Of a stretch of 64,000 nt of DNA, positions 40,947 through 61,344 are shown piece by piece; position 1 is the first letter of the stretch, and the number at the start of each line of letters is the position of its first letter. The stretch covers positions 11,835 to 75,834 of the forward strand of contig JBIODC010000004.1 in assembly GCA_044440135.1 (NCBI GenBank). The letters run 5' to 3'. The notes below the pieces were generated by a model. The model searched no databases and was not told the origin of the DNA. It worked only from the letters and a program-made list of their open reading frames with translations. This stretch comes from Steroidobacterales bacterium (GTDB lineage Bacteria > Pseudomonadota > Gammaproteobacteria > Steroidobacterales > Steroidobacteraceae). Position numbers and translations under genes: made by a program.

Positions 40947-41621
40947 ATGAGCGATACGTCATCGACACACCGGCAGGCCTGGGATCTTATTCCCTGGATC
41001 GTCAATGGCAGTGCGCCGGAGTCGGAGCAGCGGACGGTGCAGGCGCATCTCGAGAGTTGCGCCGACTGCCGCGCGGAACTGGAATTTCAGCGCCAGCTGC
41101 AGGCGGCCATGGCGCAGGACAGCACCCCGGACAGCGATGTGCGGGGCGCCTGGGAGCGGCTGCGCAGCCGTCTCGATGGCGCCGTGGAGCCGGAAGCGCA
41201 GGTAGGCGCCGTGCAGCGCCGCGCCCGCGGCAGCGGCGTTGCCTGGATGCCGTGGCTGGTCGCCGCGATGGTGGTTCAAGCGATCGGGCTCGGGGCGCTC
41301 GGTGCTGCCTGGTGGTCGCGGCCGAGCGCGCCGGCATCGCTTACGGCTCCCGCAGCCGTGTATCGCACCCTGTCGGCGACGGAAGCCGCGGCGCCGCCGG
41401 CCACGATTCGGGTCGTGTTTGCTCCCGACGTCACGATCGCACAGCTACAGGCGATGCTGGCCGCGGCAAGGCTGCAAGTCCGCTCGGGACCCAGCGACGT
41501 CGGAGTCTGGACACTGGGGCCGGCGCGGAACTCGGACCGTGCGGCGACCGAGGCGGCATTGCACGAGCTTCGTGGCAATTCCGAAGTTCGCTTTGCCGAA
41601 GCCCTCGCAGGCCCGCCGTAG
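40947..41621 (+). CDS. Anti-sigma factor (zf-HC2 type), single-pass membrane protein
   Basis: HLESCADCRAELEF (HxxxCxxC) and TM helix WMPWLVAAMVVQAIGLGALGAAWW. Begins 6 nt after the sigma gene stop. The start could also be GTG 40944. Confidence 0.8.
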   Translation: MSDTSSTHRQAWDLIPWIVNGSAPESEQRTVQAHLESCADCRAELEFQRQLQAAMAQDSTPDSDVRGAWERLRSRLDGAVEPEAQVGAVQRRARGSGVAWMPWLVAAMVVQAIGLGALGAAWWSRPSAPASLTAPAAVYRTLSATEAAAPPATIRVVFAPDVTIAQLQAMLAAARLQVRSGPSDVGVWTLGPARNSDRAATEAALHELRGNSEVRFAEALAGPP

Positions 41622-41636
41622 CGCTGTGCACCGGCC

Positions 41637-46781: not shown

Positions 46782-46842
46782 TTTTTTGTCTTCTTCCGAT
46801 CGATTCGTGACCGCTGGGCTGTGGTACCGCGCTGCCGCGCCA

Positions 46843-50009: not shown

Positions 50010-50133
50010 CAAGGTAGGTGCCCGCTACGGCCCGAAAGGTTTTTCGTGACCTGCGGGCACACGCAGCCCCGGTTGCGGCCATTGTCCGCGCAATCGAAGT
50101 CTGACACGCTGCGCCAGCCTCTCTGATTGAAAC

Positions 50134-50982
50134 ATGCATCGACCACCCAACTCACCTGCGGCACCGCCGGTCTGTACCGAGCCGCAACTGCGCGACACAC
50201 GGACTGCATTCGACAGCGTCGCGGCAGACTATGACGGTCCGCGCGGCAACAACGCGCTGATTCAGGACATGCGCCGGGAGATGTGGCACTGGCTGGACGT
50301 CACGTTTGCCGCCGGCAGCCGATTGATCGACATCGGCTGTGGCACCGGCCTGGATGCGGTCCGCATGGCGGGCCTCGGGCATCAGATCACGGCCACCGAC
50401 TGGTCGCCGCAAATGGTGCAGCGGACCTGCGCTCGTGCGGCGAGCGAACACCTGGAGGCGCGCGTGCAGGCAATCGCCGTGGGTGCACAGGAATTGGGGC
50501 TGCTCGACGGCGCCGGCAGCTACGACGGCGCGTATTCCAATCTTGGCCCGCTCAATTGCGCGCCCGATCTGGCCGAGGTGTCGCGCGAATGCGCGCGCCT
50601 GCTCAAACCCGGGGGCGCGCTGGTGTTTTCCGTCATTGGCCGCATCTGCCCGTGGGAGATTGCGCATTACCTGGGGCGGGGCCGGTGGGCGCGGGTGAAA
50701 CTGCGCTTTGCCCGCAACTTCGTGCCGGTCGGCATGAACCGTCACACCATCTGGACGCGCTACTATGGGCCGCGCGAATTCTATCGCGCGTTCCGGCGCC
50801 AGTTCGCGCTCAGCCACTTCCGTGGCCTGTGCGTGTTCGCGCCGCCGCCGTATCTGATCTGGGTTCGAGAGCGGCATCCGCGCTGGCACGATCGCCTGTG
50901 GCGACTGGATCGACGGCTGGCCGGGTGGCCGCTGCTGCGCGCGATGGGCGATCATTTCCTGATCGTCATGCAGAAGCGCTGA
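50134..50982 (+). CDS. Class I SAM-dependent methyltransferase
   Basis: Motif I LIDIGCGTGLDAVRMA and post-I ITATDWSPQMV. 282 aa. Confidence 0.85.
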   Translation: MHRPPNSPAAPPVCTEPQLRDTRTAFDSVAADYDGPRGNNALIQDMRREMWHWLDVTFAAGSRLIDIGCGTGLDAVRMAGLGHQITATDWSPQMVQRTCARAASEHLEARVQAIAVGAQELGLLDGAGSYDGAYSNLGPLNCAPDLAEVSRECARLLKPGGALVFSVIGRICPWEIAHYLGRGRWARVKLRFARNFVPVGMNRHTIWTRYYGPREFYRAFRRQFALSHFRGLCVFAPPPYLIWVRERHPRWHDRLWRLDRRLAGWPLLRAMGDHFLIVMQKR

Positions 50983-51018: not shown

Positions 51019-53031
51019 CTACTGCTGCTTCGATCCGGTCGGCGTCATGGCGCGAAAGCAGCCGTCGATCACACTCGCGACCATCAGCGCGCCTGTCCAC
51101 GTCAGGTGATTCGAGTCGGCGTACAGCAGCTGGCCGTGAGCCTCGAAGATGCACCAGCCTGTGCGACACAGCAGGTCCTTGGGATCGACCGTGGTCAGCA
51201 CTCCGCGGCGCTCGAGCGTGCGGAAATCGGTTTCGGGCCCACGCAGCTGCTGCCGCGCCTCGGCTTGGCTCCACTGCAGGAAATCCTCCGAGATCCCGCG
51301 CTTGCGCGCCACCGCCAGCGCATACGGCAGGTCGTACGCGTAGGTGGGAACATCCAGCACAACGCAGATCGAGCGCTTGTCCGAGGTCACGGCGCGCAAG
51401 GTCTGCTGCAGTCCGCGCATCAGGTTCGATTCACCCGGGGCCGCGGGTACGTCCGGCTGCGGGACGAGATTCGCATCGACATCCATCCAGCGCGCATTCA
51501 GGATGACCACGGCGGGAGCAAGCCGGCGGATGGCTTGTACGGCCGCGGCGTTGAAGTCCGCACATCGGAGGCGGGCGGCTGGGGGCAGCGCCCGGTCGGC
51601 AACACCAAGCAACGGCCGGCATGACGAATTGGCTGCGAAGAACAGCCGGATCTGATGTGAATTCGCCAACTTCTCGTACGTCGACAACAGCGCCATCGCA
51701 TGGCTGTCACCCCACACCAGGGCACGGGGCGCAGCGTCGCTTTGGGGCCCGAAACTGCACAGTTCCCCCGTGGCGATCTTCTCAGGCGGCAGATCCAGGC
51801 ATTGCATCACGTCGTCGCGGTTGACCTTCCACAACTCGCCCTGGGTTTGAAATTCGCTCGGGAATCGCCCGGGCAGCCCATGCGTTTTCCACAGTGCAAC
51901 ACCGACAATCAGGACCATGGCATTGGCCGTCAATGCCCACAGCAGGAACGACCGGTTGGACTTGAGCAATGTCCTCCGGCGGATGGGCGCTTCGACCCAT
52001 TTCCAGCTCAGGCAGGCGACGATGTACATCGAGCCGATCAGCGCCGCAACGCCGGCAGCGCTGACCTTCAGGATGTAGTAGTAGGTGAACAGCGCCAGGA
52101 TCACGAAGTGCCACAGATAGAGCGAATAGGAGATCAGCCCGGTGAATACCAGCGGTCTCAGCGACAACAGCCTGGCGGCCAGGGTGGGCCGCTGGCGTCC
52201 GGTCAGTATCAATGCCGCCGTCGCTGCGCACGGTGCGAGGGTATATAGCCCTGGGTATCTCGTCGCCGCGCTGTACCAGCCGGCCGAGGATCCCAGCGTC
52301 ACAAGTGCTGCAATGGCCAGCAGTTCGCCGGCGAACCGGGACCGGATCAGATCTTCGCGGCCGGTCGCAATCGCCGCGCCCAGCAGCAGTTCCCATGACC
52401 GCGAGGGGGCCAGGTAGTAGTTGGCGACCGGCCGGTGATACGAGGCCCAGACACATGCGGTGAACGACGCCGCCGCCAGCACAAGCAGGGCTGGCGTTGG
52501 ATGCCGGGGCAGGTATCGGCTGATGAGCAGCAGCGAGATCGGATAGATTAGATAAAATTGCTCTTCGATGGCGATCGACCAGAAATGCAGCAGCGCGACG
52601 TTTTCGCCGAAATTCTGGAAGTAGCCCTGTCGGTCGGTCCACGCGGCAATGTTTGTCAGCAGTAGTGCGGTTGCGGCAAGGTATTTTCCGAATCTTGCGA
52701 GCGCCCACGGCAGGAGAATGATGCTTGCCGCGGCTGCCGCGATCAGCGATACGACCAACAGCGCAGGCAGGATGCGGCGCGCGCGGCGCAGGTAAAAATT
52801 CGCCAGCCGCGCCCGCAGCGGTTGTGCGCTCGAGCCGATCAGCAACAGGGTGATGAGATATCCGGATATGACAAAGAACACGTCGACGCCGACATATCCG
52901 CCGCCGAATCCTGGTACATGCGAATGAAACAGCACCACCAATGCAACCGCGATGCCCCGCAGCCCGTCGATGTCGCGGCGATAGGGCGATGTGACTGCAT
53001 CGCCGGCCGGCCATTTCATCGCTTGCTGCAT
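51019..53031 (-). CDS. Acyltransferase family 3 membrane protein with C-terminal SGNH-like domain (OafA/YrhL type)
   Basis: RRDIDGLRGIAVALVVLFH start motif, about 10 TM helices and a C-terminal soluble domain (LVWGDSHAMAL). The start is ATG 53031 or 53019 (the track start 53043 is TTG). Confidence 0.85.
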   Translation of the reverse strand: MQQAMKWPAGDAVTSPYRRDIDGLRGIAVALVVLFHSHVPGFGGGYVGVDVFFVISGYLITLLLIGSSAQPLRARLANFYLRRARRILPALLVVSLIAAAAASIILLPWALARFGKYLAATALLLTNIAAWTDRQGYFQNFGENVALLHFWSIAIEEQFYLIYPISLLLISRYLPRHPTPALLVLAAASFTACVWASYHRPVANYYLAPSRSWELLLGAAIATGREDLIRSRFAGELLAIAALVTLGSSAGWYSAATRYPGLYTLAPCAATAALILTGRQRPTLAARLLSLRPLVFTGLISYSLYLWHFVILALFTYYYILKVSAAGVAALIGSMYIVACLSWKWVEAPIRRRTLLKSNRSFLLWALTANAMVLIVGVALWKTHGLPGRFPSEFQTQGELWKVNRDDVMQCLDLPPEKIATGELCSFGPQSDAAPRALVWGDSHAMALLSTYEKLANSHQIRLFFAANSSCRPLLGVADRALPPAARLRCADFNAAAVQAIRRLAPAVVILNARWMDVDANLVPQPDVPAAPGESNLMRGLQQTLRAVTSDKRSICVVLDVPTYAYDLPYALAVARKRGISEDFLQWSQAEARQQLRGPETDFRTLERRGVLTTVDPKDLLCRTGWCIFEAHGQLLYADSNHLTWTGALMVASVIDGCFRAMTPTGSKQQ

Positions 53032-53033
53032 CA

Positions 53034-53777
53034 ATGACCGCAATCGTCACGGGCGAAGCATACTTCCGGGCGATCACCGGGAACGCATCCGATCGTCGCG
53101 CGCGCGTCGCCTTTCAACAACTGGTTCTGAAGATTGCAAGACCGGGCGCCAGGCTCTTCGACTTCGGATCCGGCCCGGGGATCGACGCTCGCTTCTACGC
53201 CGAACGCGGCTTTGCCGTCGAAGCCTATGACGTCGATCCTGAAATGCGCGCATTCTTCGCCGTCTACTGCCGGGAATTCATCGAGACCGGACGAATCGCG
53301 CTCTACCGCGGCGACTATCGCGAATTCCTGGCTCACGAAGCCATCGAAGGTACCGGCGGCATCGAGCTCATCACCTCGAATTTCGCGCCGCTCAATCTGG
53401 TTCCGGACTTGCCAGAGCTGTTCGGAAAATTTCACGCGCTGGCGGCCCCGGATGGCCAGGTGCTGGCAAGCGTTCTGAGCCCCTATTGCATCGGCGATCT
53501 GAAGTACCGCTGGGCGTGGCGGAACGCACCGCGCCTGTGGCGCCATGGTTCCTATACGCTGCCTGGCCCGCGGTTCCCGAGCACCCGGCGCACGCTGGCC
53601 AATTTCGCCGCTCACAGCGCGCCGTACTTCGTATTGGAACGGGTATATCGTGGGCTGCCGCCAAGGCCGGGGCGCGACGCCATCGGCGTCGACGTGCGCC
53701 GTGGTGTCGGATTCTCCTGGCTTCACGCAATCACCTCGCAGTTCATGTTTCTCCTGTTTCGAAGGGCGCCGCTCTGA
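53034..53777 (+). CDS. Class I SAM-dependent methyltransferase
   Basis: Motif I LFDFGSGPGIDARFYA and VEAYDVDPEM. 247 aa. Its ATG lies 2 nt from the divergent acyltransferase ATG. Confidence 0.8.
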   Translation: MTAIVTGEAYFRAITGNASDRRARVAFQQLVLKIARPGARLFDFGSGPGIDARFYAERGFAVEAYDVDPEMRAFFAVYCREFIETGRIALYRGDYREFLAHEAIEGTGGIELITSNFAPLNLVPDLPELFGKFHALAAPDGQVLASVLSPYCIGDLKYRWAWRNAPRLWRHGSYTLPGPRFPSTRRTLANFAAHSAPYFVLERVYRGLPPRPGRDAIGVDVRRGVGFSWLHAITSQFMFLLFRRAPL

Positions 53778-53830: not shown

Positions 53831-55018
53831 TTAGCGATAGGCAATCCGTCGCAGTGTGGCCCGCAAGCCCGACACGGCCGAAATGCCGTATCCGAGCCTG
53901 TTGGCGGACCGGCCGACCACCGTTGCGACCAGAAGTTTCTCCGCCCCAGTCAGCGTGCGATGCGGCATGTGCTCGTCGTCGGCGAGAATCCGACCCTTCA
54001 CTTCGCCCGATTCATACGAGCTGTTGCTTCCGGCAAGTACTCCGCCAATGGTCGGGCGCCACAGAATCGGCAGCGGTTGAATGCCGAGGAAGGCCGCGAG
54101 CCTGCTTATCGTCACGCGCTGATCATTCACCAGCTGTTCGTAGCGGATCAGCAGGTAGCGATCGCTCAAGTTGGCGTCTGAACAGGCGATGGCGACCCGA
54201 TATGTCCGGGCAAGATCTCGTAGCACCGCTCGAACGTTGCGAAACGCGGCCGAGGTGTGCAATTCCATGATCTTGCGGGAGTTGAACACCGCCATCGGGT
54301 CCCGAATGACATGGATGATCCGGGCGTCGGGAAACTCTGCCAGCAATCGATTGATGAAACGTTCGTTGGCCGGTGTTTTCTCGACCCACCTCAATGCAGC
54401 AGGGGCAATTCTGCCCCCGGCGTTGCAGTAGGCATACGCCAGCGCCACGGCTACCAGCGTCCACGAGCGCGTGTCCCGACCCAGAGCGCGTTCAACGATG
54501 AACCACCATGCCATCAAGGCGCGCGCGAACGACACGTACGGCGAATCCACGGAGGAACTGCGCCCGAGCAGCCAGAACGGCGGTTGATTGCTGTGATTCG
54601 CCAGTCTGCGCACCCATTCGCAGGCGACTGCACGCAGGCTGGCGTCCGTTGGTCCGACAATTCGACTCCATCGATTGCTATGCAACGTTCCCTCGGCCGG
54701 CAATACCGACAGCGCCGGATGAGAGTCCAGCAGATCGCGTATCAGCGTTGTGCCGCTACGATGCACGCCGCAGATGAACACCGGGCGCCGCGCCAGACTG
54801 ACCCCGCGCTCGATGTCCTCGGGCGCGATCCGACATGGGCCGCGGGTCTCGGCCGCCGCCCAGACGCGGTCAGACCACGCGAGCGCGGTCATCGCCGCAA
54901 CCGCGGCCGCGCTGCTATCCAGCCGCCAGTCCACCAACTGCCGGTCGAGCAGCGGCTCGAGATCCAGCAGCTGCTTCATTGCGCTTGGGTCGGATGCTCG
55001 GGTAGACATCTGGACCAT
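53831..55018 (-). CDS. Sulfotransferase, Sulfotransfer_3 / tyrosylprotein-sulfotransferase-like
   Basis: 5'-PSB-like VFICGVHRSGTTLIRDLLDSHP, 3'-PB-like FPDARIIHVIRDPMAVFNS, and LLIRYEQLV. TGATG overlap with the ABC gene. Confidence 0.85.
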   Translation of the reverse strand: MVQMSTRASDPSAMKQLLDLEPLLDRQLVDWRLDSSAAAVAAMTALAWSDRVWAAAETRGPCRIAPEDIERGVSLARRPVFICGVHRSGTTLIRDLLDSHPALSVLPAEGTLHSNRWSRIVGPTDASLRAVACEWVRRLANHSNQPPFWLLGRSSSVDSPYVSFARALMAWWFIVERALGRDTRSWTLVAVALAYAYCNAGGRIAPAALRWVEKTPANERFINRLLAEFPDARIIHVIRDPMAVFNSRKIMELHTSAAFRNVRAVLRDLARTYRVAIACSDANLSDRYLLIRYEQLVNDQRVTISRLAAFLGIQPLPILWRPTIGGVLAGSNSSYESGEVKGRILADDEHMPHRTLTGAEKLLVATVVGRSANRLGYGISAVSGLRATLRRIAYR

Positions 55019-56811
55019 CAGCGCATGCCGGCCAATTGCTTGAAGCCCTCTGAGTCGCGGAGCAGCTCAGCGTAGGACCCGCTGGCCATGATCTTCCCGT
55101 TGGCGAGCTCGAAGATCACATTGCAGGTGCGCAGCGTGCTCAAGCGGTGAGCGATCAGAATGATGGTATAGCTGCCGCGCAGGCTCATCAGGGTCGCGAT
55201 CAGCTCCTGTTCGGTCAAGCCATCCAGGGCGTTGGTGGCTTCGTCCAGAATCAGTACCGAGGCTTCACGGTAGAGTGCACGGGCAATGCCGACCCGCTGA
55301 CGTTGACCGCCACTCAAGCCAACGCCGCGCTCACCGACCGGGTGATCGTAGCCGTCGGGCAGGCTGCGCACGAATTCGTCGAGCTGCGCGCGCCGTGCGG
55401 CGGCGAGCAGCCGCTCCCGATCGATATGCTCCCTCGGAACGCCGAGCGCGACATTCTGCGCGATGCTCGCATCCATTAGACCGATATGCTGCGGAACGTA
55501 GGCGATCCGGTGTTGCCACGCCGCGCGCGTTGCGTGGTCCACGGCGATGCCGTCGACTTCCACCTGGCCCGTCACAGGCACGAGCAACCCCGCAATCAGA
55601 TCGACCAGCGTGCTCTTTCCCGAACCGTTGGCACCTACGAAGCCGACTACCGATCGCGCGGGAATCACCAGCGAGACCGCGTTGACCGCCGGCGGCGCAT
55701 CGGCCGAATAGGCGAACGTTACCTCGGTCATGCGGATGTCCCGTGCCGGACGTTGCCGCCACGATTCATCCACCGCCGCGGGTATATCGATGGCGGAGCG
55801 CGCCAGCCGCAGATCCGGCGCTATCGCGGCAAATCCGGTGCGGCTGGCGCGAATTCTGATTGCCGCCACGAATGCCTGCTGCAGCGTGGGCAGCAGCCGA
55901 TACGCCGCAAATCCCATGAAGGTCAGCTGACCCAGCCACGGGCTGACGCCGTCGTCGCGGCTACCCAGCAGCAGGGCCGTGCCGACCAGACCCGCCACGG
56001 CGACGCACTCCATCACGTGCCTTGGGCTCTGGCTCACGAGCTGGGTGTGCGCGACGGCCAGCGACAGGGTTCGGCTTGCGCGGTCGAATCGGTCGCGAAA
56101 TACGTTCTGGATTCGAAACAGCAGGATTTCCTTCATCGCGCCCAGGGTCTCGGTGACGATCTTTGTCTGCTCGATAAAGAACTTCGACTGAACCTGGCCG
56201 CAGCGCAGCGACCGCTTGCGCACTGCGAGGTAGATCAGCAGATAGCCGCCGCCGAGCGCTCCGATCATCGCCAGGGCAACCGCCGGGTTGAGCAGCAGAA
56301 CCGATACGATGATGAATGCCGCCGTGATGATGGCCGTGACCAGGGTGAATGCGCTCTGCAGGATCTCATTGGTGACCCGGGCGGTCTCGTGGATGACGTT
56401 GTTGTAGATCGTTGCGCTGTGCGTTTGCGCGTGAAAGACATACGGGCGGCGAAGATACTCACCGAACAATGTTGCCTGCAGGTCGGCGCCGATCCACCAG
56501 GCCAGCCGACTCATCGCGAAGGCGCCCAGGATGTTGATCACGTTGGCGATCACTACCAGTGCCACGAACCCAAGACCCAGGGCCACGATGAATCTGCGGT
56601 TGCTTGAGAATCCCAGGTGAACGTACAGCCAGTGCACCGGCCCGACCGAATCGATCAACTCCGGTCTTCCCAGCACGGAGAAGAATGGCGCGATCGAAAC
56701 TATCCCGGTCACGGTGGAGAACGCCATCGTGACCGAAAGCACCTGCGCCGCGAGTACCCAGCGTCGTTGCCGGGGCGTCAGGATGCTCCAGATGTCGCGC
56801 AGCATGCTCAT
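55018..56811 (-). CDS. Fused TMD-NBD ABC exporter (MsbA/PglK type); no C39 peptidase domain
   Basis: ATG 56811 overlaps the upstream TGA (ATGA). Six-helix TMD. GANGSGKST, LSGGQRQR, VLILDEAT. 597 aa. Confidence 0.9.
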   Translation of the reverse strand: MSMLRDIWSILTPRQRRWVLAAQVLSVTMAFSTVTGIVSIAPFFSVLGRPELIDSVGPVHWLYVHLGFSSNRRFIVALGLGFVALVVIANVINILGAFAMSRLAWWIGADLQATLFGEYLRRPYVFHAQTHSATIYNNVIHETARVTNEILQSAFTLVTAIITAAFIIVSVLLLNPAVALAMIGALGGGYLLIYLAVRKRSLRCGQVQSKFFIEQTKIVTETLGAMKEILLFRIQNVFRDRFDRASRTLSLAVAHTQLVSQSPRHVMECVAVAGLVGTALLLGSRDDGVSPWLGQLTFMGFAAYRLLPTLQQAFVAAIRIRASRTGFAAIAPDLRLARSAIDIPAAVDESWRQRPARDIRMTEVTFAYSADAPPAVNAVSLVIPARSVVGFVGANGSGKSTLVDLIAGLLVPVTGQVEVDGIAVDHATRAAWQHRIAYVPQHIGLMDASIAQNVALGVPREHIDRERLLAAARRAQLDEFVRSLPDGYDHPVGERGVGLSGGQRQRVGIARALYREASVLILDEATNALDGLTEQELIATLMSLRGSYTIILIAHRLSTLRTCNVIFELANGKIMASGSYAELLRDSEGFKQLAGMR

Positions 56812-57974
56812 CGGGCGCTGGAGCTGCATTCGCGCCGTGGCATGAGGGCCCCGGATCTTCGGTCGAGCATGTCGCGATAGACTGCATTCAGCTTGCGGCC
56901 GATGGCCGCGATGGACAGCTCGCGGTCGAAGTGCGCGCGCACCGATGCGCGCAGATCCTTGCCCGACCGCATCCAGATCGATACCAGCGCCAGCGCCAGG
57001 CGCTGCGCGCTACCGCATGGCCAGAGCTCGCCAACCATGGCATCGCCGGTGAGCGCGCGAAAGGCAGGGATGTCCGACACCACCGGCGGGACACCGCAGG
57101 CCATCGCCTCCAGCAGCGCGTAGCCGCTGCCTTCGCGGCGACTTCCGAGTACGAACAGATCCGCCGCGCGCATCACCTGTTGAATCTGCTCGTGGGGCAC
57201 GCTTCCCATCAGGCGGGTTCTCGCAGCCAGTCTCGGGTCCTGCGCGATGCGCCGCTGCACCGCTGCCAGCAACGGCGCGCTACCGAAATAGCACCACAGG
57301 CGCAGGCCGGGCAGGCGCTCAGCCGCCGCGCTCACGCCATCGAGCACGGTCAGTGGATCCTTGTTCTCGTTCAAGTGTCCCACCCACAGGACGCATGGGT
57401 CACCGTGCAGTCCGGTCGCGCGTTGCGCCTGAGCCTGATCTCCCGGCGCGAAATGGCTGGTCCCCTCGGGAACCTCGTAGACCACGGTGGACGCACTGAC
57501 GAGACCGGCATCCCGGAACGGCATGGCCTGCTCTTTGGCACAGAAGCATAGGCCCGAGGCCGCCGACAGGCAGCGGCGCCATAACGGCCGTCGCCATTTG
57601 CGCGGTGGCTGATCGGCATGATCCTGCAGCAGCATCGGGGTTCGCGGCGCGAGCTTCGCGAGCGCCAGCACTTCGTGCGGAAAGCCGAGGCCGTGCACAT
57701 GCAGCACATCGGCATTCAGATCACGGATCAGCCGACGCAGCCCCGATCCCCGCGCAATACCGGACGCATGCCGATGCGGCGCCAGGAAGTGATAGGTGAT
57801 GTCACGTTGGGTGAGGGTCTGTGCGCGCGAGCTGGCCTGGATGACCGACACCTGGGCCCCACCGCCGCAGGCGGCCTGCGCCACGTCGACCATCGTCGGC
57901 CAATCGTGCAGCAGCTGCTGCGGCTCGCGTTGGCGAGGGTCGATGAAGAAGCCGATCTGTGCCACGCGCAGCAT
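56808..57974 (-). CDS. Glycosyltransferase family 4 (GT-B)
   Basis: ATG 57974 (MLRVAQIGFFIDP...) overlaps the upstream TGA (TGATG). C-terminal REGSGYALLEAMACGVPPVVSD. The 90 upstream track codons were rejected. Confidence 0.85.
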   Translation of the reverse strand: MLRVAQIGFFIDPRQREPQQLLHDWPTMVDVAQAACGGGAQVSVIQASSRAQTLTQRDITYHFLAPHRHASGIARGSGLRRLIRDLNADVLHVHGLGFPHEVLALAKLAPRTPMLLQDHADQPPRKWRRPLWRRCLSAASGLCFCAKEQAMPFRDAGLVSASTVVYEVPEGTSHFAPGDQAQAQRATGLHGDPCVLWVGHLNENKDPLTVLDGVSAAAERLPGLRLWCYFGSAPLLAAVQRRIAQDPRLAARTRLMGSVPHEQIQQVMRAADLFVLGSRREGSGYALLEAMACGVPPVVSDIPAFRALTGDAMVGELWPCGSAQRLALALVSIWMRSGKDLRASVRAHFDRELSIAAIGRKLNAVYRDMLDRRSGALMPRRECSSSAR

Positions 57975-59551
57975 CAGATTCCGGTCACTCGCGGATCGGC
58001 GAGGCGCACGAGTCGCTTCGACAGATCGAGTTCCCACGGCCGGTCGTAGAGGCGCAACCGATAACGCCAGGAGGCCAGCGCACTCAGGGTCGATTTGGTC
58101 CATGATCGGGTGCGCACGTCCTGCACGGTCGGGAATCGGCAGCCGAGCACCGTGACGAAATTGCGGATCCGCCGCCGCAGGCGCTCGCTCACCCACGGCG
58201 CGGCGGCATGGCACGCATAGTCGACCCACTGGCGCTCGGTCCATTCCTCCGGGCTGCGCGGGAAACGAACCGGATGGCCCGCGAGATTTAGCAGCGGCGG
58301 CGCGGCCGCGCCGCTGCGGGCATCATTCGGCAGATTCTCCGCGGGCAGCGGCGTGTAGATGTAGACGATGATCTCCGCGAACGGATTGACCCGCTTGAGC
58401 TCCCGAATGAACTCGAAAGTGCGCTCGGTCTCGCCCTCAGGATCGACCGGTGGCGCCACCATGAATGACAGTTCGGGTATGACGTCGTGGCGGCGACACA
58501 GTTCGGCCACCGCGATGGTCTGATCCGAGCGGGTGCCTTTGCGGATGCTCCTGAGCATCGCATCGTTCGGAGACTCGGCACCGATGTAGGCCATGCGCAG
58601 CCGGCTCTTGCGCACCAGGCTCCATGAGGCGTCGGTGAGGCCGAGCAGAGCGTCGGCACGGGCGTAACACCACCACGGCATCTGCACCCTCGAGAGCACC
58701 TGCAGCAGCGGAATCATGTCGTCTTCGCGGTCAAAGAAGTTGTGATCGAAAAACTGGATCGAGTCCGCGCCGAGTCGATCCCGCAGCCACAACAGGTCCC
58801 GCTCCAATCGGAGCGGCGGCGGCAGCGCCGTGGCTCCCCGAAACATCCCGGCCACGCCGCAGAAGGTGCAGCGGAAGCGGCAGCCGAGCGCGGCCTGGTG
58901 GGCCACGGTGCGTTGCCCGAGAAAGGTCCTGGCCAGGTATGCGCGCGGATCCCCCAGGCTGTGGTACGGCAGCGGTCGCGGCGATCGGCGATCGGCCGGC
59001 CGTCGATCCCGGTTGATGACGATCTCACCGCCTCGCTTCCATGTGATCCCATCAATCGACTCGAGCGCATCGCGTTCGCCGGCGCTGATTGCCTGCAGCA
59101 GTTGCGCGAAAGTCTGTTCGCCCTGACCCCGGACCGCGTAGTCCACGTAGGGCGCGTTGATGGCCGCGCCGCGGTACAGGGTCGGGAAATATCCACCCCA
59201 GACGATCGGCGTTGCCGCAGATGCCGCGCGCACCGCGAGCGAAGCGTCGATCGCGGTACGCACCTGCGGGCCTCCCATCACCGAGACGCCGACGGCGTCA
59301 AAGCACTGTTGCGACAGCGCTTGCCGGATCGTGTTGATGTAGTCGCGGTCGACATTGCCGTCGATGATCCGGCAGTCATAGTCCGGCTCCAGGGATGCCG
59401 CGAGCGCCAGCAATGACAGTGGAAAGCGCGCGCCGCGCCGCGAGGTGATCGTCGGATTGATCAGCAGAATCCGGCGTGCCGCTTCGGTCAGGGACGTGGC
59501 CGCAGTCACGGGCATCGGCAACCTTCTGCTGGTGGTCGGTGTGGTTCTCAT
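57974..59551 (-). CDS. B12-binding-domain radical SAM protein (no. 2)
   Basis: N-terminal RILLINPT...LLALAASL B12-binding-like region and radical-SAM CRFRCTFC. 525 aa. An alternative start is ATG 59515. Confidence 0.85.
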   Translation of the reverse strand: MRTTPTTSRRLPMPVTAATSLTEAARRILLINPTITSRRGARFPLSLLALAASLEPDYDCRIIDGNVDRDYINTIRQALSQQCFDAVGVSVMGGPQVRTAIDASLAVRAASAATPIVWGGYFPTLYRGAAINAPYVDYAVRGQGEQTFAQLLQAISAGERDALESIDGITWKRGGEIVINRDRRPADRRSPRPLPYHSLGDPRAYLARTFLGQRTVAHQAALGCRFRCTFCGVAGMFRGATALPPPLRLERDLLWLRDRLGADSIQFFDHNFFDREDDMIPLLQVLSRVQMPWWCYARADALLGLTDASWSLVRKSRLRMAYIGAESPNDAMLRSIRKGTRSDQTIAVAELCRRHDVIPELSFMVAPPVDPEGETERTFEFIRELKRVNPFAEIIVYIYTPLPAENLPNDARSGAAAPPLLNLAGHPVRFPRSPEEWTERQWVDYACHAAAPWVSERLRRRIRNFVTVLGCRFPTVQDVRTRSWTKSTLSALASWRYRLRLYDRPWELDLSKRLVRLADPRVTGI

Positions 59552-59557
59552 GCAGGT

Positions 59558-60271
59558 TCAGCTGAGCTTCAGGATCGCCAGCCTCTCGTTGACGAAGTCA
59601 CGCTCGGCGACCACCGCTATCGCAAACCCGCCGCGACGAAACTGGCCGACGAACTCGCGCGCTCCGCCGTAGTTAGATAGCAGCACCAGGGCAAATCCCG
59701 ATGGCGTCAGATGGTCCCTCAACCCGGACGCAAATCGTTCGGCAACGTCGGTCGATCGCCAGGCGCGATCGGCGTCGTCCCGGGGCACGCCGTGCAGGAA
59801 CGGCGGATTGAACAGCACCACGTCGAAGCGGCGACCGGTGAGCGGTGCGAACAGATCCCCGTGCAGCACCTCGATTCTGTCCTCGCACCGGTGGATCATC
59901 GTGTTGATACGGGCGCAGCGTACCGCCGCGGGATTGATGTCCACGGCGGCGACGTGCCGCGCATGCCTGGCGGCGAACAGCGCACACACGCCCGATCCGG
60001 TGCCCATGTCGAGCACGTCGGCATCGGCAGGCAGCAGGTCGGAGCGCAATTGCGACGCGAAGAACTCGCCGGTCCGCGTCAGCCGCGGATTGAGCACGCC
60101 CGGTGCGACCAGCAATGGCAGGCCGCCGACCTGCTCGAGCACGAAGTCATGCTGTCGCAGGTAGCGCGACAGGCGATAGCGCCAATGCAGCAGCCTGCCG
60201 ATGGCGCGCCGGATCGCGCCGTAGCCGGGCGCATCCAGCAGCGCCTGCAATGTCCGAGTCTGCGCGCCCAT
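59558..60271 (-). CDS. Methyltransferase of the HemK/PrmC-like (NPPF motif) type
   Basis: ATG 60271 (MGAQTRTLQALL...). Motif I VLDMGTGSGVCALFAA and motif IV VVLFNPPFL. 237 aa. The 277 upstream track codons were rejected because they overlap the rSAM gene. Confidence 0.8.
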   Translation of the reverse strand: MGAQTRTLQALLDAPGYGAIRRAIGRLLHWRYRLSRYLRQHDFVLEQVGGLPLLVAPGVLNPRLTRTGEFFASQLRSDLLPADADVLDMGTGSGVCALFAARHARHVAAVDINPAAVRCARINTMIHRCEDRIEVLHGDLFAPLTGRRFDVVLFNPPFLHGVPRDDADRAWRSTDVAERFASGLRDHLTPSGFALVLLSNYGGAREFVGQFRRGGFAIAVVAERDFVNERLAILKLS

Positions 60272-60288
60272 GGGTTCGGACTGACGGC

Positions 60289-61344
60289 TCAGACCGCGGC
60301 GGTCCGCGCCGGGCACAGTTCCCAGTCGGCGACGCCGCTCGGCTCTCGCCACATCGAACACACGCAGGTCGCGCACTCGGGGCGCCGCCGCTGCCCGATA
60401 TCGTGGCGCAGGCTCGTCATCGCATCGCCATTCAGGGCTGCCAGCAGATCGTCGTGCACCCGCGCCTCCGCCGGTCCGGGAATGAAATAGCACGGATGCA
60501 CCTGACCCTGTGCGTCGATCACCGCCGAGAACTCGGGTGCATTGCACCGCACCGCCGGATAGGCGCCCTGTCCGCAGACCGCGGCAAAGTATTGCAGGAT
60601 GCGCCCGAGCTTCTGCGGGCTCTCGGCGATGAAACCGGAGCGAAACTCCGCGGCACATTGCTGCGCCAGATCGCGCAACAGCTGTTCGAACAGCGGCAAA
60701 TCCTGTGGATGCAGGGCCAGATCCGAGCTGAATGCATCGGTGCGCCCGAATGCATGCGGGTTCGCAACATCGACCGCGAGAAACGAAATCCGATGCACGC
60801 CGGTCTGCCGGGCCAGCTCGACGAACCGCGGCAACTCGCGGTAGTTGGCCCGTTGCAGGGTGACCCGCAGGCTGATCCGCGCCCCGGCCACGGCGGCAGC
60901 GCGGATGCCTTCGCACACCTTGTCGAACGCGTCCAGGCCGCGAATGGCCGCGTAGGTTGCAGCGTTGGTGCCGTCCAACGATACGGTGATGGCATCGAAC
61001 AGCTCCGAGGCCTGCCGTGCGTGCCTGGTCAGCGACAGCCCGGAGGTCAACAGCCATGGGACCAGCCCGTTCGATTGCAGCAGGCGGGCGATGTCTGCCC
61101 ATTGCGGATTGATCAGCGGCTCGCCGCCGGACAGCTGGACCACGCGGGTCTGCAACTGCTTCAGGCTTGGCAGCAGCCGCTCGACCGATTCGAGATTCAT
61201 ATCGGCTCGACCATGTCGCCAGTAGTCACACGTCACGCAGCGTGAATTGCAGCGCTCGGTCAGGTACAGCGTGACCAGCGGCAGCCGTTGCAGCGGGCTC
61301 GGATCCGCCGGACGATTCGTCAGATGCACACGCGTACCGAGCAT
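60289..61344 (-). CDS. Radical SAM protein with C-terminal SPASM/twitch-like Cys cluster; no N-terminal RRE-sized extension
   Basis: SD AGGGGAA. CNSRCVTC at residues 32-39. C-terminal C-x12-G-x4-C (CNAPEFSAVIDAQGQVHPC) followed by CATCVC. Confidence 0.85.
   Translation of the reverse strand: MLGTRVHLTNRPADPSPLQRLPLVTLYLTERCNSRCVTCDYWRHGRADMNLESVERLLPSLKQLQTRVVQLSGGEPLINPQWADIARLLQSNGLVPWLLTSGLSLTRHARQASELFDAITVSLDGTNAATYAAIRGLDAFDKVCEGIRAAAVAGARISLRVTLQRANYRELPRFVELARQTGVHRISFLAVDVANPHAFGRTDAFSSDLALHPQDLPLFEQLLRDLAQQCAAEFRSGFIAESPQKLGRILQYFAAVCGQGAYPAVRCNAPEFSAVIDAQGQVHPCYFIPGPAEARVHDDLLAALNGDAMTSLRHDIGQRRRPECATCVCSMWREPSGVADWELCPARTAAV

What the first reader, a model, noticed from the sequence alone, without database searches (positions are those of the whole stretch)
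53831..61344. Six-gene translationally coupled operon from rSAM/SPASM to TPST-like sulfotransferase
**Seen:**
- The junctions between the six genes are, in order, a 17-nt gap, a 6-nt gap, TGATG (57972-57976), ATGA (56808-56811) and TGATG (55016-55020).
- The gene order is rSAM/SPASM, NPPF methyltransferase, B12-rSAM, GT4, ABC exporter, sulfotransferase.
- The rSAM has its CX3CX2C only 31 residues from the N-terminus, so there is no RRE-sized extension. It also has C-x12-G-x4-C and CATCVC at the C-terminus.
- The sulfotransferase motifs are VFICGVHRSGTTLIRDLLDSHP, FPDARIIHVIRDPMAVFNS and LLIRYEQLV.
- From memory, not from an alignment, these resemble the PAPS-binding and core motifs of eukaryotic tyrosylprotein sulfotransferases (GGVPRSGTTLMRAMLDAHP, ...LLMVRDGRASVHS, ...VHYEQLV).

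**Established:**
- NPPY/NPPF methyltransferases methylate amide or amino nitrogens, for example the Gln of release factors.
- Xanthomonas RaxST, encoded next to an ABC exporter, sulfates a Tyr in the secreted RaxX peptide.
- SPASM rSAM enzymes mostly act on peptides or proteins.

**Inference:** the enzymology points to a secreted, sulfated, N- or C-methylated and glycosylated peptide or protein. That would make it a RaxX-like concept with far heavier tailoring, yet no substrate gene lies in the operon.
Basis: partly seen in the sequence, partly recalled or inferred. Interest (0 to 1): 0.75.

Follow-up and report, generated by a model that had tools for sequence, protein, structure and literature searches.

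The report
Radical-SAM surface-glycan operon with optional sulfotransferase
The six-gene operon is real, but comparison with about 70 related soil-bacterial genomes suggests it builds and exports an unusual sulfated, methylated envelope sugar chain or glycolipid, not a RaxX-like sulfated peptide.

Summary
**Observation:** confirmed. Gene order, the TGATG/ATGA/TGATG overlaps, the domains and every quoted motif are in the sequence. One caveat: the B12-rSAM probably starts at 59515, which makes that gap 42 nt rather than 6.

**Source:** a Steroidobacterales MAG.

**Conserved cluster:** in 68 related loci the constant parts are:
- the rSAM/SPASM gene
- one or two B12-rSAM genes
- GT4/GT2 glycosyltransferases
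- a half-size ABC exporter

**Variable shell:**
- The sulfotransferase is present in only 8 of the 68 loci.
- The other shell genes are AT3-SGNH and AT3 acyltransferases, GT87/PMT_2, CE4 and PIG-L deacetylases, and methyltransferases.

**Peptide signs:** I found no precursor ORF, RRE or C39 peptidase domain.

**Nearest solved relatives:**
- rSAM: BlsE, which acts on a sugar nucleoside.
- ABC exporter: PglK and MsbA.
- Sulfotransferase: about equally distant from TPSTs, the CurM/OLS sulfotransferases and mycobacterial Stf1/Stf9.

**Rhodanobacter:** orthologues of the B12-rSAM, the glycosyltransferases and a methyltransferase lie on one strand with Wzx, a Wzy-like protein and Wzz.

**Best reading (confidence about 0.55):** a lipid-linked envelope glycoconjugate pathway with radical-SAM sugar tailoring. 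Here the product is also sulfated in the cytoplasm before being flipped across the membrane.

**Rivals:** a peptide substrate encoded elsewhere, or a nucleoside-like small molecule. Neither is excluded.

**Product:** unknown, so this is moderately interesting.

The parts
60289..61344 (-). Radical SAM enzyme with a partial SPASM/twitch C-terminal domain. First gene of the operon and the constant anchor of the cluster.
   Evidence: Pfam finds Radical_SAM plus SPASM. The cysteines C32/C36/C39, C267, C285 and C324/C327/C329 are invariant. It reaches no NCBIfam equivalog; the best is NirJ at 78 bits against a cutoff of 515. BlsE is the best solved relative by profile (67.5 bits) and by fold (E = 2.1e-13, TM 0.61-0.65). 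The motif scan found 194 GTDB species-level relatives; the best 80 are all Steroidobacteraceae or uncultured Gammaproteobacteria/Proteobacteria-labelled MAGs (one labelled Enterobacteriaceae).
59558..60271 (-). MTS/HemK-type SAM methyltransferase with an NPPF motif.
   Evidence: Pfam MTS, E = 3.2e-16. It scores 85.9 bits on TIGR00537 (HemK2/MTQ2), just under the cutoff of 87. In related loci it is replaced, in the same slot, by a type-11 methyltransferase plus an amidohydrolase: 34 loci versus 33, and never both.
57974..59551 (-). B12-binding radical SAM enzyme. The likely start is ATG 59515.
   Evidence: Pfam finds B12-binding plus Radical_SAM. It only weakly matches BchE, HpnJ, PhpK and RiPP C-methylases, all far below cutoff. 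It is present in 64 of 68 loci. There is a 64%-identical orthologue inside a Rhodanobacter Wzx/Wzy-like/Wzz cluster. Start site.
56808..57974 (-). GT4 glycosyltransferase.
   Evidence: Pfam Glycos_transf_1 and Glyco_transf_4. Present in 39 of 68 loci, often alongside one or two GT2 genes.
55018..56811 (-). ABC half-transporter (TMD-NBD, 597 aa) with no peptidase domain. Candidate flippase for a lipid-linked glycan.
   Evidence: Pfam finds only ABC_membrane plus ABC_tran. The best NCBIfam matches are MsbA (278 bits), HepA (249) and PglK (228), all below cutoff. Among solved half-transporters PglK is best and aligns end to end (residues 4-574 on 2-560, 189 bits), followed by MsbA at 183. Present in 52 of 68 loci.
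53831..55018 (-). PAPS-type sulfotransferase (Sulfotransfer_3). Last gene of the operon and an accessory tailoring gene.
   Evidence: Pfam PF13469, E = 2.3e-30. Profile search against the PDB gives OLS 57, CurM 54, TPST1 50, TPST2 43 and Stf1 30 bits. By fold, the TPSTs, Stf1, OLS, Stf9 and CurM all fall at E = 1e-7 to 1e-5 with target-normalised TM about 0.36-0.58. Present in 8 of 68 loci. It also occurs alone in Dyella and in one metagenomic contig of unknown taxon. Its GC3 of 0.74 is the second lowest of the cluster.
53034..53777 (+). SAM methyltransferase (Methyltransf_23), convergent with the sulfotransferase.
   Evidence: Present in 17 of 68 loci. Where the sulfotransferase lies downstream of the core, this gene is usually the adjacent convergent gene.
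51019..53043 (-). AT3-SGNH membrane acyltransferase.
   Evidence: Pfam Acyl_transf_3 plus SGNH. The NCBIfam best hit is the acetyltransferase SucT, below cutoff. This family is present in 9 of 68 loci, and two further AT3 families occur in others.
50134..50982 (+). SAM methyltransferase (Methyltransf_11/25).
   Evidence: Present in 16 of 68 loci. There is a 58%-identical orthologue in the Rhodanobacter polysaccharide cluster.
48897..50012 (-). Second GT4 glycosyltransferase.
   Evidence: Present in 19 of 68 loci, often directly after the HPrK-like gene. 63% identical orthologue in Rhodanobacter.
46843..48812 (-). Two secreted proteins of unknown function. One is a CxxCH lipoprotein (47952-48812). 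The other looks like an outer-membrane barrel with an N-terminal CxxCH (46843-47955). Whether they belong to the pathway is uncertain.
   Evidence: No Pfam or NCBIfam hit. The motifs were read from the translations; 'outer-membrane barrel' is my own reading of the sequence and was not tested. The two genes overlap by ATGA. The same pair lies next to the rSAM gene in 7-9 of 68 loci.
45306..46991 (-). Second B12-binding radical SAM enzyme. The true start is probably downstream of 46991.
   Evidence: 62% identical orthologue in Rhodanobacter and 74-78% in L003/L004.
43988..45331 (-). PF14907 (NTP_transf_5) nucleotidyltransferase.
   Evidence: Pfam E = 1.7e-27. It follows the second B12-rSAM in L001 and L004 as well.
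43084..44109 (+). HPr-kinase-like P-loop protein (HprK-related, ScmC-like).
   Evidence: Weak hits to Pfam Hpr_kinase_C (24 bits, below the cutoff of 33) and to TIGR04352 and TIGR04355. Present in 16 of 68 loci. In L090 it is co-directional between the sulfotransferase and a GT4.
40285..43073 (+). ECF sigma factor, zf-HC2 anti-sigma factor and an S8 subtilase. Possible regulatory module at the far edge of the cluster.
   Evidence: The same genes lie upstream of the rSAM gene, mostly directly and on the same strand, in 7-9 of 68 loci.

Best explanation
**What it is.** The six genes are one transcription unit within a roughly 18-21 kb locus (about 40.3/43.1-61.3 kb of the window). I read the locus as making an envelope glycoconjugate: a lipid-linked oligosaccharide that ends up as a glycolipid, a short surface polysaccharide, or a decoration of LPS or EPS.

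**Proposed order of events. All steps are inferred; none was tested.**
1. In the cytoplasm, the BlsE-like rSAM/SPASM enzyme and the B12-dependent rSAM enzymes remodel a sugar or sugar-nucleotide-type intermediate. Possible reactions are radical decarboxylation, dehydration or epimerisation, followed by C-methylation or rearrangement.
2. The NPPF methyltransferase N-methylates an amino or amide nitrogen of that unit. In the sister variant of the cluster, an amidohydrolase plus a second methyltransferase act at the same step.
3. The GT4 and GT2 enzymes assemble the glycan on a lipid carrier.
4. In this genome the Sulfotransfer_3 enzyme then adds sulfate from PAPS, still in the cytoplasm.
5. The PglK/MsbA-like ABC half-transporter flips the lipid-linked product to the periplasmic face.
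6. There the AT3-SGNH enzyme O-acylates it. In other genomes GT-C enzymes (GT87, PMT_2) and CE4 deacetylases act on it there.
7. The HPrK-like kinase and the PF14907 transferase may add a phosphate-linked substituent.

**Shown versus inferred.**
- Shown: gene content, synteny, family assignments and nearest structural relatives.
- Inferred: the substrate, the order of steps and the chemistry.
For: **Cluster composition across relatives**
- In 68 non-redundant loci the core is rSAM (68), B12-rSAM (64), ABC exporter (52), GT2 (45) and GT4 (39). The sulfotransferase is in only 8.
- Accessory genes in this window and in related loci are carbohydrate-active or glycan-modifying:
  - AT3-SGNH and two further AT3 families
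  - GT87, a PMT_2-like GT-C enzyme and a CE4 polysaccharide deacetylase
  - a PIG-L deacetylase
  - a weak AlgX/GDSL-like match

**Rhodanobacter sp. C03 (L001)**
- Orthologues of the B12-rSAM (64% identity), GT4a, GT4b (63%) and MT11 (58%) lie on one strand.
- An amidohydrolase and another methyltransferase lie in the same run (Pfam only).
- The same run holds Wzz, a polytopic 396-aa Wzy-like protein, a GT2 and a Wzx (Polysacc_synt) gene.

**Nearest solved relatives**
- ABC exporter: among solved half-transporters PglK is best and aligns end to end, then MsbA. The top NCBIfam matches are MsbA, HepA and PglK.
- rSAM: BlsE by profile and by fold. BlsE acts on cytosylglucuronic acid (PMC3715490).

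**No sign of a peptide system**
- Genes are packed with median gaps of -34 to 79 nt, leaving no recurrent slot for a small ORF.
- No conserved small ORF lies upstream of the rSAM gene.
- No RRE or C39 domain was found.

**Composition**
- GC3 of the tailoring genes is below that of housekeeping genes (0.73-0.80 versus 0.84-0.86). From my own knowledge, that is common in variable surface-glycan loci.
Against: - The window holds no priming phosphoglycosyltransferase, no Wzy/Wzz and no outer-membrane polysaccharide exporter. The locus is therefore not a self-sufficient polysaccharide pathway.
- None of the proteins reaches a curated equivalog cutoff.
anSME, SkfB, SuiB and PqqE are the next-best fold matches.
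- The combination of an HPrK-like kinase, a PF14907 transferase and a sulfotransferase is also known from lasso-peptide clusters (PMC8498205).
- An S8 protease lies at the edge of the cluster.
- NPPF methyltransferases of the HemK/Mtq2 type methylate protein glutamine, and this one nearly reaches that model.
- Rhodanobacter has the B12-rSAM module but no rSAM/SPASM gene within 10 kb. The two may not act on one substrate.
- All of the evidence is comparative.
Confidence: 0.55

Rival explanations
1. **The first reader's view.** The cluster matures and exports a ribosomal peptide or a protein that is cross-linked or methylated by the rSAM enzymes, N-methylated, glycosylated and Tyr/Ser/Thr-sulfated. 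The precursor gene would lie elsewhere in the genome.
For: - The rSAM has an SPASM-type domain, and peptide maturases (anSME, SkfB, SuiB, PqqE) are among its top fold matches.
- The sulfotransferase shares its fold and its 5'-PSB motif with the TPSTs.
- The methyltransferase nearly reaches the HemK2/MTQ2 protein-glutamine model, at 85.9 bits against a cutoff of 87.
- An HPrK-like kinase, a PF14907 transferase and a sulfotransferase occur together in lasso-peptide clusters, where the first two modify a C-terminal Ser (PMC8498205).
- An S8 protease sits at the cluster edge, and in 7-9 of 68 loci it lies close upstream of the rSAM gene.
Against: - No precursor ORF was found within or upstream of the cluster in about 80 loci.
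- No RRE or PqqD domain or partner protein was found.
- No lasso cyclase or B protein turned up among the ORFs I scanned in the window. ORFs in the first ~14.7 kb were not scanned.
- The ABC exporter lacks a C39 domain, and no MFP was identified among the cluster genes scanned, unlike RaxAB (PMC6637879).
- The sulfotransferase is dispensable for the cluster, being present in 8 of 68 loci.
- The shell genes are glycan enzymes, and the Rhodanobacter orthologues lie in a Wzx/Wzy-like/Wzz cluster.
- BlsE outranks the peptide maturases by about three orders of magnitude in E-value.
Confidence: 0.17
2. **A soluble small molecule.** The product would be a glycosylated nucleoside-like or pseudo-oligosaccharide natural product pumped out by the ABC exporter. 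The rSAM enzyme would act like BlsE on a hexuronic-acid nucleoside. The exocyclic amino group of a base would be either N-methylated by the NPPF enzyme or deaminated by the amidohydrolase and then methylated.
For: - BlsE is the closest solved relative of the rSAM by sequence and by fold.
- The NPPF methyltransferase and the pair of methyltransferase plus COG0402-like amidohydrolase are strictly alternative in the same slot: 34 loci against 33, with none holding both.
- The amidohydrolase's best, though weak, matches are base and amidine deaminases: 8-oxoguanine, guanine, 5'-deoxyadenosine and aminofutalosine deaminases.
- From my own knowledge, B12-rSAM C-methylases, GT4 enzymes, deacetylases and kinases are typical of aminoglycoside and nucleoside pathways.
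Against: - Identity to BlsE is only 21%, and the protein scores 56 bits on TIGR04466 against a cutoff of 400.
- I found no aminotransferase, cyclitol synthase or nucleotide hydrolase in the cluster.
- The membrane-embedded and periplasm-facing enzymes (AT3-SGNH, GT87, PMT_2, CE4) and the Wzx/Wzy-like/Wzz context do not fit a soluble metabolite.
- From my own knowledge, conservation across a whole family of soil bacteria is unusual for an antibiotic cluster.
Confidence: 0.15
3. **A membrane-lipid head-group pathway, analogous in logic to hopanoid side-chain elaboration.** That pathway uses the HpnH rSAM, the HpnI glycosyltransferase, the HpnK deacetylase and the HpnJ B12-like rSAM (my own knowledge). 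Here the rSAM enzymes would modify a lipid or its sugar head group, and the ABC exporter would move the lipid to the outer membrane.
For: - The rSAM aligns over its full length to the HpnH model (residues 19-338 on 24-316 of 318, E = 4e-13).
- The B12-rSAM enzymes hit HpnJ, HpnR and the ladderane-lipid B12-rSAM models.
- Related loci carry deacetylases or amidohydrolases.
- MsbA is the best NCBIfam match of the ABC exporter.
Against: - All of these scores are far below cutoff: 49 bits against 225 for HpnH, and 53 against 578 for HpnJ.
- No squalene-hopene cyclase or other lipid-synthesis gene was identified among the scanned ORFs of the window.
- This reading overlaps with the best explanation if the product is a glycolipid.
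Confidence: 0.1

Closest known systems
Xanthomonas raxX-raxSTAB (RaxST tyrosine sulfation of RaxX, export by RaxAB)
   Same: A PAPS-type sulfotransferase of the TPST-like fold is encoded next to an ABC exporter (PMC6637879).
   Different: - RaxX is encoded in the cluster, RaxB removes a double-glycine leader, and RaxA is its type I secretion partner (PMC6637879).
- Here there is no precursor and no C39 domain, and no MFP was identified among the cluster genes scanned.
- The sulfotransferase is optional.
- The same paper notes that raxST homologues in other phyla occur without raxX and presumably act on other substrates.
Lipid-linked-oligosaccharide and lipid A flippases PglK and MsbA, in glycan assembly loci
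   Same: It has the same half-transporter architecture and aligns end to end with PglK. It is encoded directly after glycosyltransferases and before periplasm-acting glycan modifiers.
   Different: - Scores are below the PglK (228 against 1000) and MsbA (278 against 602) equivalog cutoffs.
- No pgl-type oligosaccharyltransferase or lipid A gene was identified among the scanned ORFs of the window.
- From my own knowledge, no characterised PglK or MsbA locus has been reported to include three radical SAM enzymes.
BlsE, the radical SAM cytosylglucuronate decarboxylase of blasticidin S biosynthesis
   Same: BlsE is the best solved relative of the rSAM/SPASM protein, by profile (67.5 bits) and by fold (E = 2.1e-13 over 342 columns). 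BlsE acts on a sugar rather than a peptide (PMC3715490).
   Different: Identity is 21%, and the protein is far below the BlsE equivalog cutoff (56 against 400). The other genes around it do not look like a nucleoside-antibiotic pathway.
Sulfated bacterial polysaccharide clusters, for example synechan (xss) of Synechocystis
   Same: Cytoplasmic sulfotransferases are encoded among glycosyltransferases and export genes of an extracellular polysaccharide (PMC8205485, abstract and title seen).
   Different: I did not read the paper in full, so its gene content is not compared in detail. Those systems are Wzx/Wzy-type and, from my own knowledge, are not reported to carry radical SAM enzymes.
Tailoring set of lasso-peptide clusters (HPr-kinase homologue, PF14907 nucleotidyltransferase, sulfotransferase)
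   Same: The same three enzyme families co-occur in one locus (PMC8498205).
   Different: No lasso cyclase, B1/B2 protein or precursor was found among the ORFs I scanned in the window. Here the trio sits among glycosyltransferases and acyltransferases.

Membership tests
Tyrosylprotein sulfotransferase (TPST/RaxST type) | PAPS-binding 5'-PSB and 3'-PB motifs and the sulfotransferase fold | tested here: met
   Pfam Sulfotransfer_3, E = 2.3e-30. HMMER aligns residues 73-103 to the TPST2 5'-PSB motif and 225-314 to its core. Fold matches to TPST1 and TPST2 have probability 1.00.
Tyrosylprotein sulfotransferase (TPST/RaxST type) | Closer to TPST/RaxST than to sulfotransferases that act on other substrates | tested here: not met
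   Profile search gives OLS 57.3, CurM 53.7, TPST1 49.9, TPST2 43.5 and Stf1 30.1 bits. By fold, the TPSTs, Stf1, OLS, Stf9 and CurM all lie within E = 3e-7 to 2e-5, and CurM has the best target-normalised TM-score (0.58) among them. No RaxST, NodH or NoeE reference tree could be built. The only NCBIfam hit is NoeE, through the PSB motif alone.
Tyrosylprotein sulfotransferase (TPST/RaxST type) | A peptide substrate gene nearby, with a leader-cleaving PCAT exporter and an MFP (the rax layout) | tested here: not met
   No recurrent small ORF. The ABC exporter is 597 aa with only ABC_membrane plus ABC_tran. No MFP was identified among the cluster genes scanned.
RiPP radical SAM/SPASM maturase | CX3CX2C radical SAM core plus an SPASM auxiliary-cluster domain | tested here: inconclusive
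   The core is present. SPASM scores 23.0 bits against a cutoff of 21.5. Only five invariant C-terminal cysteines are present, ending in CxxCxC rather than the canonical CX2CX5CX3C (the canonical motif is from my own knowledge).
RiPP radical SAM/SPASM maturase | An RRE/PqqD-like recognition element, fused or stand-alone, and an adjacent precursor peptide gene | tested here: not met
   The first cluster cysteine is residue 32, so there is no N-terminal extension. No PqqD-family hit appears on any cluster protein. No conserved small ORF was found.
PglK/MsbA-type lipid or lipid-linked-oligosaccharide flippase | TMD-NBD half-transporter most similar to PglK or MsbA | tested here: met
   It aligns to PglK over residues 4-574 on 2-560 at 189 bits, and to MsbA at 183 bits. 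These are the best solved half-transporters. MsbA, HepA and PglK are among the top NCBIfam hits.
PglK/MsbA-type lipid or lipid-linked-oligosaccharide flippase | Reaches the curated equivalog score | tested here: not met
   MsbA 277.7 bits against 602; PglK 227.8 against 1000; HepA 249.4 against 725.
Self-contained surface polysaccharide locus (Wzx/Wzy-dependent or ABC-dependent) | Glycosyltransferases plus a flippase or exporter and glycan-modifying enzymes | tested here: met
   Two GT4 genes, the ABC exporter, AT3-SGNH, the sulfotransferase and methyltransferases. Related loci add GT2, GT87, PMT_2, CE4 and PIG-L.
Self-contained surface polysaccharide locus (Wzx/Wzy-dependent or ABC-dependent) | A priming phosphoglycosyltransferase, a polymerase with chain-length regulator, and an outer-membrane exporter in the locus | tested here: not met
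   None was found among the scanned window ORFs. Wzx, a Wzy-like protein and Wzz occur only next to the orthologous genes in Rhodanobacter L001.
BlsE-type sugar-modifying radical SAM enzyme | Equivalog-level similarity to BlsE | tested here: not met
   TIGR04466 scores 56.1 bits against a cutoff of 400. BlsE is only the nearest solved relative, at 21% identity.
Hopanoid side-chain enzymes HpnH and HpnJ | Equivalog-level similarity | tested here: not met
   HpnH 49.1 bits against 225; HpnJ 52.7 against 577.6.
Lasso-peptide cluster with kinase, nucleotidyltransferase and sulfotransferase tailoring | A lasso cyclase (asparagine-synthetase-like), a B1/B2 leader peptidase with RRE, and a precursor | tested here: not met
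   No such family was found on any cluster protein or on the other scanned window ORFs. ORFs in the first ~14.7 kb were not scanned, and the rest of the genome could not be searched.

The most novel reading that the evidence does not exclude
Steroidobacteraceae, soil bacteria known here mostly from MAGs, carry a family-wide pathway in which a BlsE-like rSAM enzyme and up to three B12-rSAM enzymes build a sugar or head group not yet described. That group would bear an amino or amidine nitrogen.

The nitrogen would be handled in two strictly alternative ways: N-methylation by an NPPF enzyme, or hydrolysis or deamination followed by methylation. Lineage-specific sulfation, phosphorylation and acylation would follow.

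The result would be a new class of envelope glycoconjugate made with radical chemistry.
Probability: 0.25. Interest if true: 0.75.

Novelty: new variant of a known kind. Interest (0 to 1): 0.5.

Why it matters
**If the glycan reading holds**
- It would be one of the few cases in which radical SAM and cobalamin-dependent radical SAM enzymes are core parts of a bacterial surface-glycan pathway rather than occasional parts.
- The pathway is conserved across a whole family of soil bacteria that is known here mostly from MAGs.
- It would point to unknown sugar chemistry.
- It would also point to sulfated envelope glycans in soil Gammaproteobacteria. [quoted passage not shown]

**The strict either/or swap.** The alternation between an NPPF N-methyltransferase and an amidohydrolase plus methyltransferase gives a concrete, testable handle on what the substrate is.

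**If the peptide reading holds instead.** It would be a heavily tailored sulfated RiPP with its precursor encoded elsewhere, which would also be new.

**In either case.** The finding cautions against reading 'SPASM plus TPST-like sulfotransferase' as a sign of a peptide substrate.

Tried and rejected
- **Exact look-up of the 395-aa sulfotransferase.** Nothing on record, because NCBI calls a shorter 353-aa product.
- **Precursor peptide.**
  - Gaps between consecutive cluster genes across about 80 loci are too small and show no recurrent slot.
  - Clustering six-frame peptides from the 700 nt upstream of the rSAM gene gave only neighbouring genes (CcmA, methyltransferase) and GC-rich noise.
- **Regulatory RNA.** Rfam at gathering threshold found no match anywhere in the window.
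- **Promoters and terminators.** The scan of 53-62 kb found no more sites than in shuffled sequence.
- **Lasso-peptide context for the kinase, PF14907 and sulfotransferase trio.** No cyclase or B protein was found among the scanned window ORFs.
- **Hopanoid (HpnH/HpnJ), haem d1 (NirJ), AhbC/D, MoaA and PqqE assignments.** All are far below their cutoffs.
- **Whether the rSAM sequences split by cluster type (NPPF versus amidohydrolase).** They do not: 67.7% identity within types against 67.1% between.
- **Literature searches for the cluster.** Three searches found nothing that describes it:
  - Steroidobacter plus radical SAM
  - B12-rSAM plus SPASM plus glycosyltransferase plus ABC
  - HprK-related kinase or PF14907
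- **Contexts of B12-rSAM homologues.** The top 120 are all at least 66% identical and, where a source names them, come from Steroidobacter-like MAGs, so I did not pursue them.
- **Not run.** I did not use the representative-library HMM search or the metagenome scan. The genome scan had already given 80 loci.

Full report
**1. The observation**

Six minus-strand ORFs fill 53831-61344:

| Gene | Coordinates |
|---|---|
| rSAM/SPASM | 60289-61344 |
| MTS methyltransferase | 59558-60271 |
| B12-rSAM | 57974-59551 |
| GT4 | 56808-57974 |
| ABC exporter | 55018-56811 |
| Sulfotransferase | 53831-55018 |

- The junctions are as reported: a 17-nt gap, then TGATG (57972-57976), ATGA (56808-56811) and TGATG (55016-55020).
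- The 6-nt gap before the B12-rSAM depends on the start codon.
  - Homologues begin 5-10 residues before the conserved ILLINP motif, and NCBI calls a 513-aa product.
  - ATG 59515, preceded by GAAGG, is therefore more likely, which gives a 42-nt gap.
- The long start of the sulfotransferase, which the TGATG overlap needs, is supported by conservation of its first 42 residues. NCBI's 353-aa call looks too short.
- Pfam confirms every domain.
- The cysteine motifs of the rSAM are invariant in 16 homologues.
- NPPF and the three sulfotransferase motifs are present.
- HMMER aligns the first sulfotransferase motif to the 5'-PSB motif of TPST2.
- The operon ends at the sulfotransferase, because the next gene (53034-53777) is convergent.

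**2. Where it comes from and how far the locus extends**

The source is a Steroidobacterales MAG, shown by 100%-identical proteins on a 92-kb NCBI contig. The locus continues downstream of the six genes:

| Coordinates | Strand | Product |
|---|---|---|
| 53034-53777 | + | methyltransferase |
| 51019-53043 | - | AT3-SGNH acyltransferase |
| 50134-50982 | + | methyltransferase |
| 48897-50012 | - | second GT4 |
| 47952-48812 | - | secreted CxxCH lipoprotein, no family hit |
| 46843-47955 | - | secreted CxxCH protein that looks like an outer-membrane barrel, no family hit |
| 45306-46991 | - | second B12-rSAM |
| 43988-45331 | - | PF14907 nucleotidyltransferase |
| 43084-44109 | + | HPr-kinase-like protein |
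| 40285-43073 | + | ECF sigma factor, anti-sigma factor, S8 protease |

- The same order is kept in a relative whose sulfotransferase is 74% identical (L003/L004).
- Of the rest of the window, the ORFs I scanned (14.7-39.4 kb and the two genes upstream of the rSAM gene) are housekeeping. The first ~14.7 kb was not scanned.

**3. Comparative genomics**

A motif scan of one genome per GTDB species found 194 relatives of the rSAM. The best 80, at 62-72% identity, are all labelled as Steroidobacteraceae or uncultured Gammaproteobacteria/Proteobacteria MAGs, apart from one labelled Enterobacteriaceae. I mapped the window's proteins, and four further families found in the loci, onto these loci with tblastn. 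Counts below are for the 68 non-redundant loci with at least 9 kb downstream of the rSAM gene:

| Gene family | Loci out of 68 |
|---|---|
| rSAM/SPASM | 68 |
| B12-rSAM | 64 |
| ABC exporter | 52 |
| distant B12-rSAM paralogue | 46 |
| GT2 | 45 |
| GT4 | 39 |
| NPPF methyltransferase | 34 |
| type-11 methyltransferase | 34 |
| amidohydrolase | 33 |
| second GT4 | 19 |
| MT23 | 17 |
| MT11 | 16 |
| HPrK-like | 16 |
| AT3-SGNH | 9 |
| sulfotransferase | 8 |

- The reported operon is therefore one variant of a conserved cluster, and the sulfotransferase is an optional tailoring gene.
- Further accessory families in the loci:
  - two more AT3 acyltransferase families
  - GT87 and a PMT_2-like GT-C enzyme
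  - a CE4 polysaccharide deacetylase and a PIG-L deacetylase
  - flavin-reductase-like proteins
- L090 shows 12 co-directional genes: rSAM, B12, MTS, B12, GT4, GT2, GT2, ABC, sulfotransferase, HPrK-like, GT4, AT3-SGNH.
- Genes are tightly packed, with median gaps of -34 to 79 nt, and no recurrent gap could hold a precursor gene.
- No conserved small ORF lies upstream of the rSAM gene.
- Rfam finds nothing in the window.

**4. An unexpected regularity**

- The NPPF methyltransferase, and the pair of type-11 methyltransferase plus amidohydrolase, occupy the same slot right after the rSAM gene.
- They never co-occur: 34 loci have the first, 33 have the pair, one has the type-11 methyltransferase alone, and none has both.
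- The amidohydrolase's best matches, all weak, are base and amidine deaminases.
- From my own knowledge, NPPF/NPPY enzymes methylate amide or exocyclic amino nitrogens.
- This suggests, by inference only, that the intermediate carries such a nitrogen and that the two cluster types treat it differently.
- The rSAM sequences do not split by type (67.7% identity within types, 67.1% between). The B12-rSAM partly does: the nearest neighbour is of the same type in 67 of 71 cases.

**5. What the individual proteins resemble**

None reaches a curated NCBIfam equivalog.

*rSAM/SPASM*
- Profile search against the PDB gives BlsE 67.5 bits, PqqE 48, MoaA 43 and SkfB 25.
- The AlphaFold model has mean pLDDT 76.
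- Its fold search gives BlsE at E = 2.1e-13 and TM 0.61-0.65. anSME, SkfB, SuiB and PqqE follow at about 1e-9 to 1e-10, and then viperins and MoaA.
- BlsE decarboxylates cytosylglucuronic acid (PMC3715490).

*Sulfotransferase*
- Profile search gives OLS 57 bits, CurM 54, TPST1 50, TPST2 43 and Stf1 30.
- The model has mean pLDDT 83.
- By fold, the TPSTs, Stf1, OLS, Stf9 and CurM all lie within E = 3e-7 to 2e-5, with target-normalised TM about 0.36-0.58.
- The label 'TPST-like' is therefore correct at the level of the clade, but it does not predict the substrate.
- The family also occurs alone, next to TonB-dependent receptors, in Dyella and in one metagenomic contig of unknown taxon.

*ABC exporter*
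- It has no C39 domain.
- The best solved half-transporters are PglK, aligned end to end at 189 bits, and MsbA at 183 bits.
- The top NCBIfam matches are MsbA, HepA and PglK.

**6. The Rhodanobacter locus**

- In the isolate Rhodanobacter sp. C03 (L001), orthologues of the B12-rSAM (64% identity), both GT4 genes (49% and 63%) and MT11 (58%) lie on one strand.
- An amidohydrolase and another methyltransferase lie in the same run (Pfam only).
- That run also holds Wzz, a polytopic 396-aa Wzy-like protein, a GT2 and a Wzx flippase.
- The sulfotransferase (48%), MT23, the second B12-rSAM (62%), PF14907 (50%) and the HPrK-like gene (51%) lie directly alongside.
- This places the shared modules in a classical heteropolysaccharide cluster.
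- Rhodanobacter has no rSAM/SPASM gene within 10 kb.

**7. Interpretation**

- The most likely product is a lipid-linked envelope glycoconjugate. Its sugar unit is remodelled by radical SAM chemistry, methylated, and in this genome sulfated in the cytoplasm.
- It is then flipped by the PglK/MsbA-like ABC exporter and O-acylated in the periplasm.
- The HPrK-like kinase and the PF14907 transferase may add a phosphate-linked substituent. In pseudomycoidin these two families put a phosphate on a Ser and hexoses on that phosphate (PMC8498205).
- I put confidence at about 0.55.
- Arguments against this reading:
  - The window has no priming transferase, polymerase or outer-membrane exporter.
  - SPASM enzymes usually act on peptides.
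  - The methyltransferase nearly reaches the Mtq2 model (85.9 bits against 87).
  - The kinase, PF14907 and sulfotransferase trio is known from lasso-peptide clusters.
- Rival readings:
  - a tailored peptide whose precursor is encoded elsewhere (0.17)
  - a nucleoside-like small molecule (0.15)
  - a lipid head-group pathway (0.10), which overlaps with the main reading

**8. Comparison with known systems, and novelty**

- The locus does not meet the defining features of a rax-type system (precursor, PCAT, MFP), a RiPP maturase system (RRE, precursor), a lasso cluster, or the hpn, Bls, PglK or MsbA equivalogs.
- It works most like a surface-glycan assembly and flipping locus. It differs in having two to four radical SAM enzymes as core parts.
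- My literature searches found no description of it.
- I class it as a new variant of a known kind, of moderate interest.
- The chemistry is unknown and the cluster is conserved across a whole family.

Noticed in passing
window 46843-48812 (-): Two overlapping genes (ATGA at 47952-47955) encode a lipoprotein with a CSVCH haem-type motif and an Ig-like C-terminus, and a protein with an N-terminal CVACH that looks like an outer-membrane beta-barrel. Neither hits any Pfam or NCBIfam model. The same pair lies beside the rSAM gene in 7-9 of 68 related loci.
   Followed up: partly
window 40285-43073 (+): An ECF sigma factor, a zf-HC2 anti-sigma factor and an S8 subtilase. In 7-9 related loci the same genes lie upstream of the rSAM gene, mostly directly and on the same strand, so they may regulate the cluster.
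   Followed up: partly
window 59558-60271 (-); related loci such as L022 10945-12911: The NPPF methyltransferase, and a pair made of a type-11 methyltransferase plus a deaminase-like amidohydrolase, take the same position after the rSAM gene. They are strictly mutually exclusive across 68 loci: 34 versus 33, and none with both.
   Followed up: yes
NCBI's 353-aa sulfotransferase omits a conserved N-terminus. The B12-rSAM more likely starts at 59515 than at 59551.
   Followed up: yes
related loci, for example L034 4801-9457 and L084 1479-2832: The cytochrome c maturation operon (CcmA, B, C, E, F, G by sequence appearance) lies close upstream of the rSAM gene, on the opposite strand, in about 24 loci. 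Together with the CxxCH proteins this may be more than coincidence.
   Followed up: no
window 43988-44109: As called, the 3' ends of the convergent HPrK-like gene and PF14907 gene overlap by 122 nt. One of the two ends or starts may be miscalled.
   Followed up: no
window 35230-35940 (+); L007 8774-9088: A zf-CDGSH iron-sulfur protein is encoded about 5 kb from the far end of the cluster (40285) in the window. A shorter one lies directly upstream of the rSAM gene in L007.
   Followed up: no
window 53034-55018: The sulfotransferase and the convergent methyltransferase have the lowest GC3 of the biosynthetic cluster genes (0.74 and 0.73). Housekeeping genes in the window have 0.84-0.86. This fits recent acquisition of these two genes.
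   Followed up: partly
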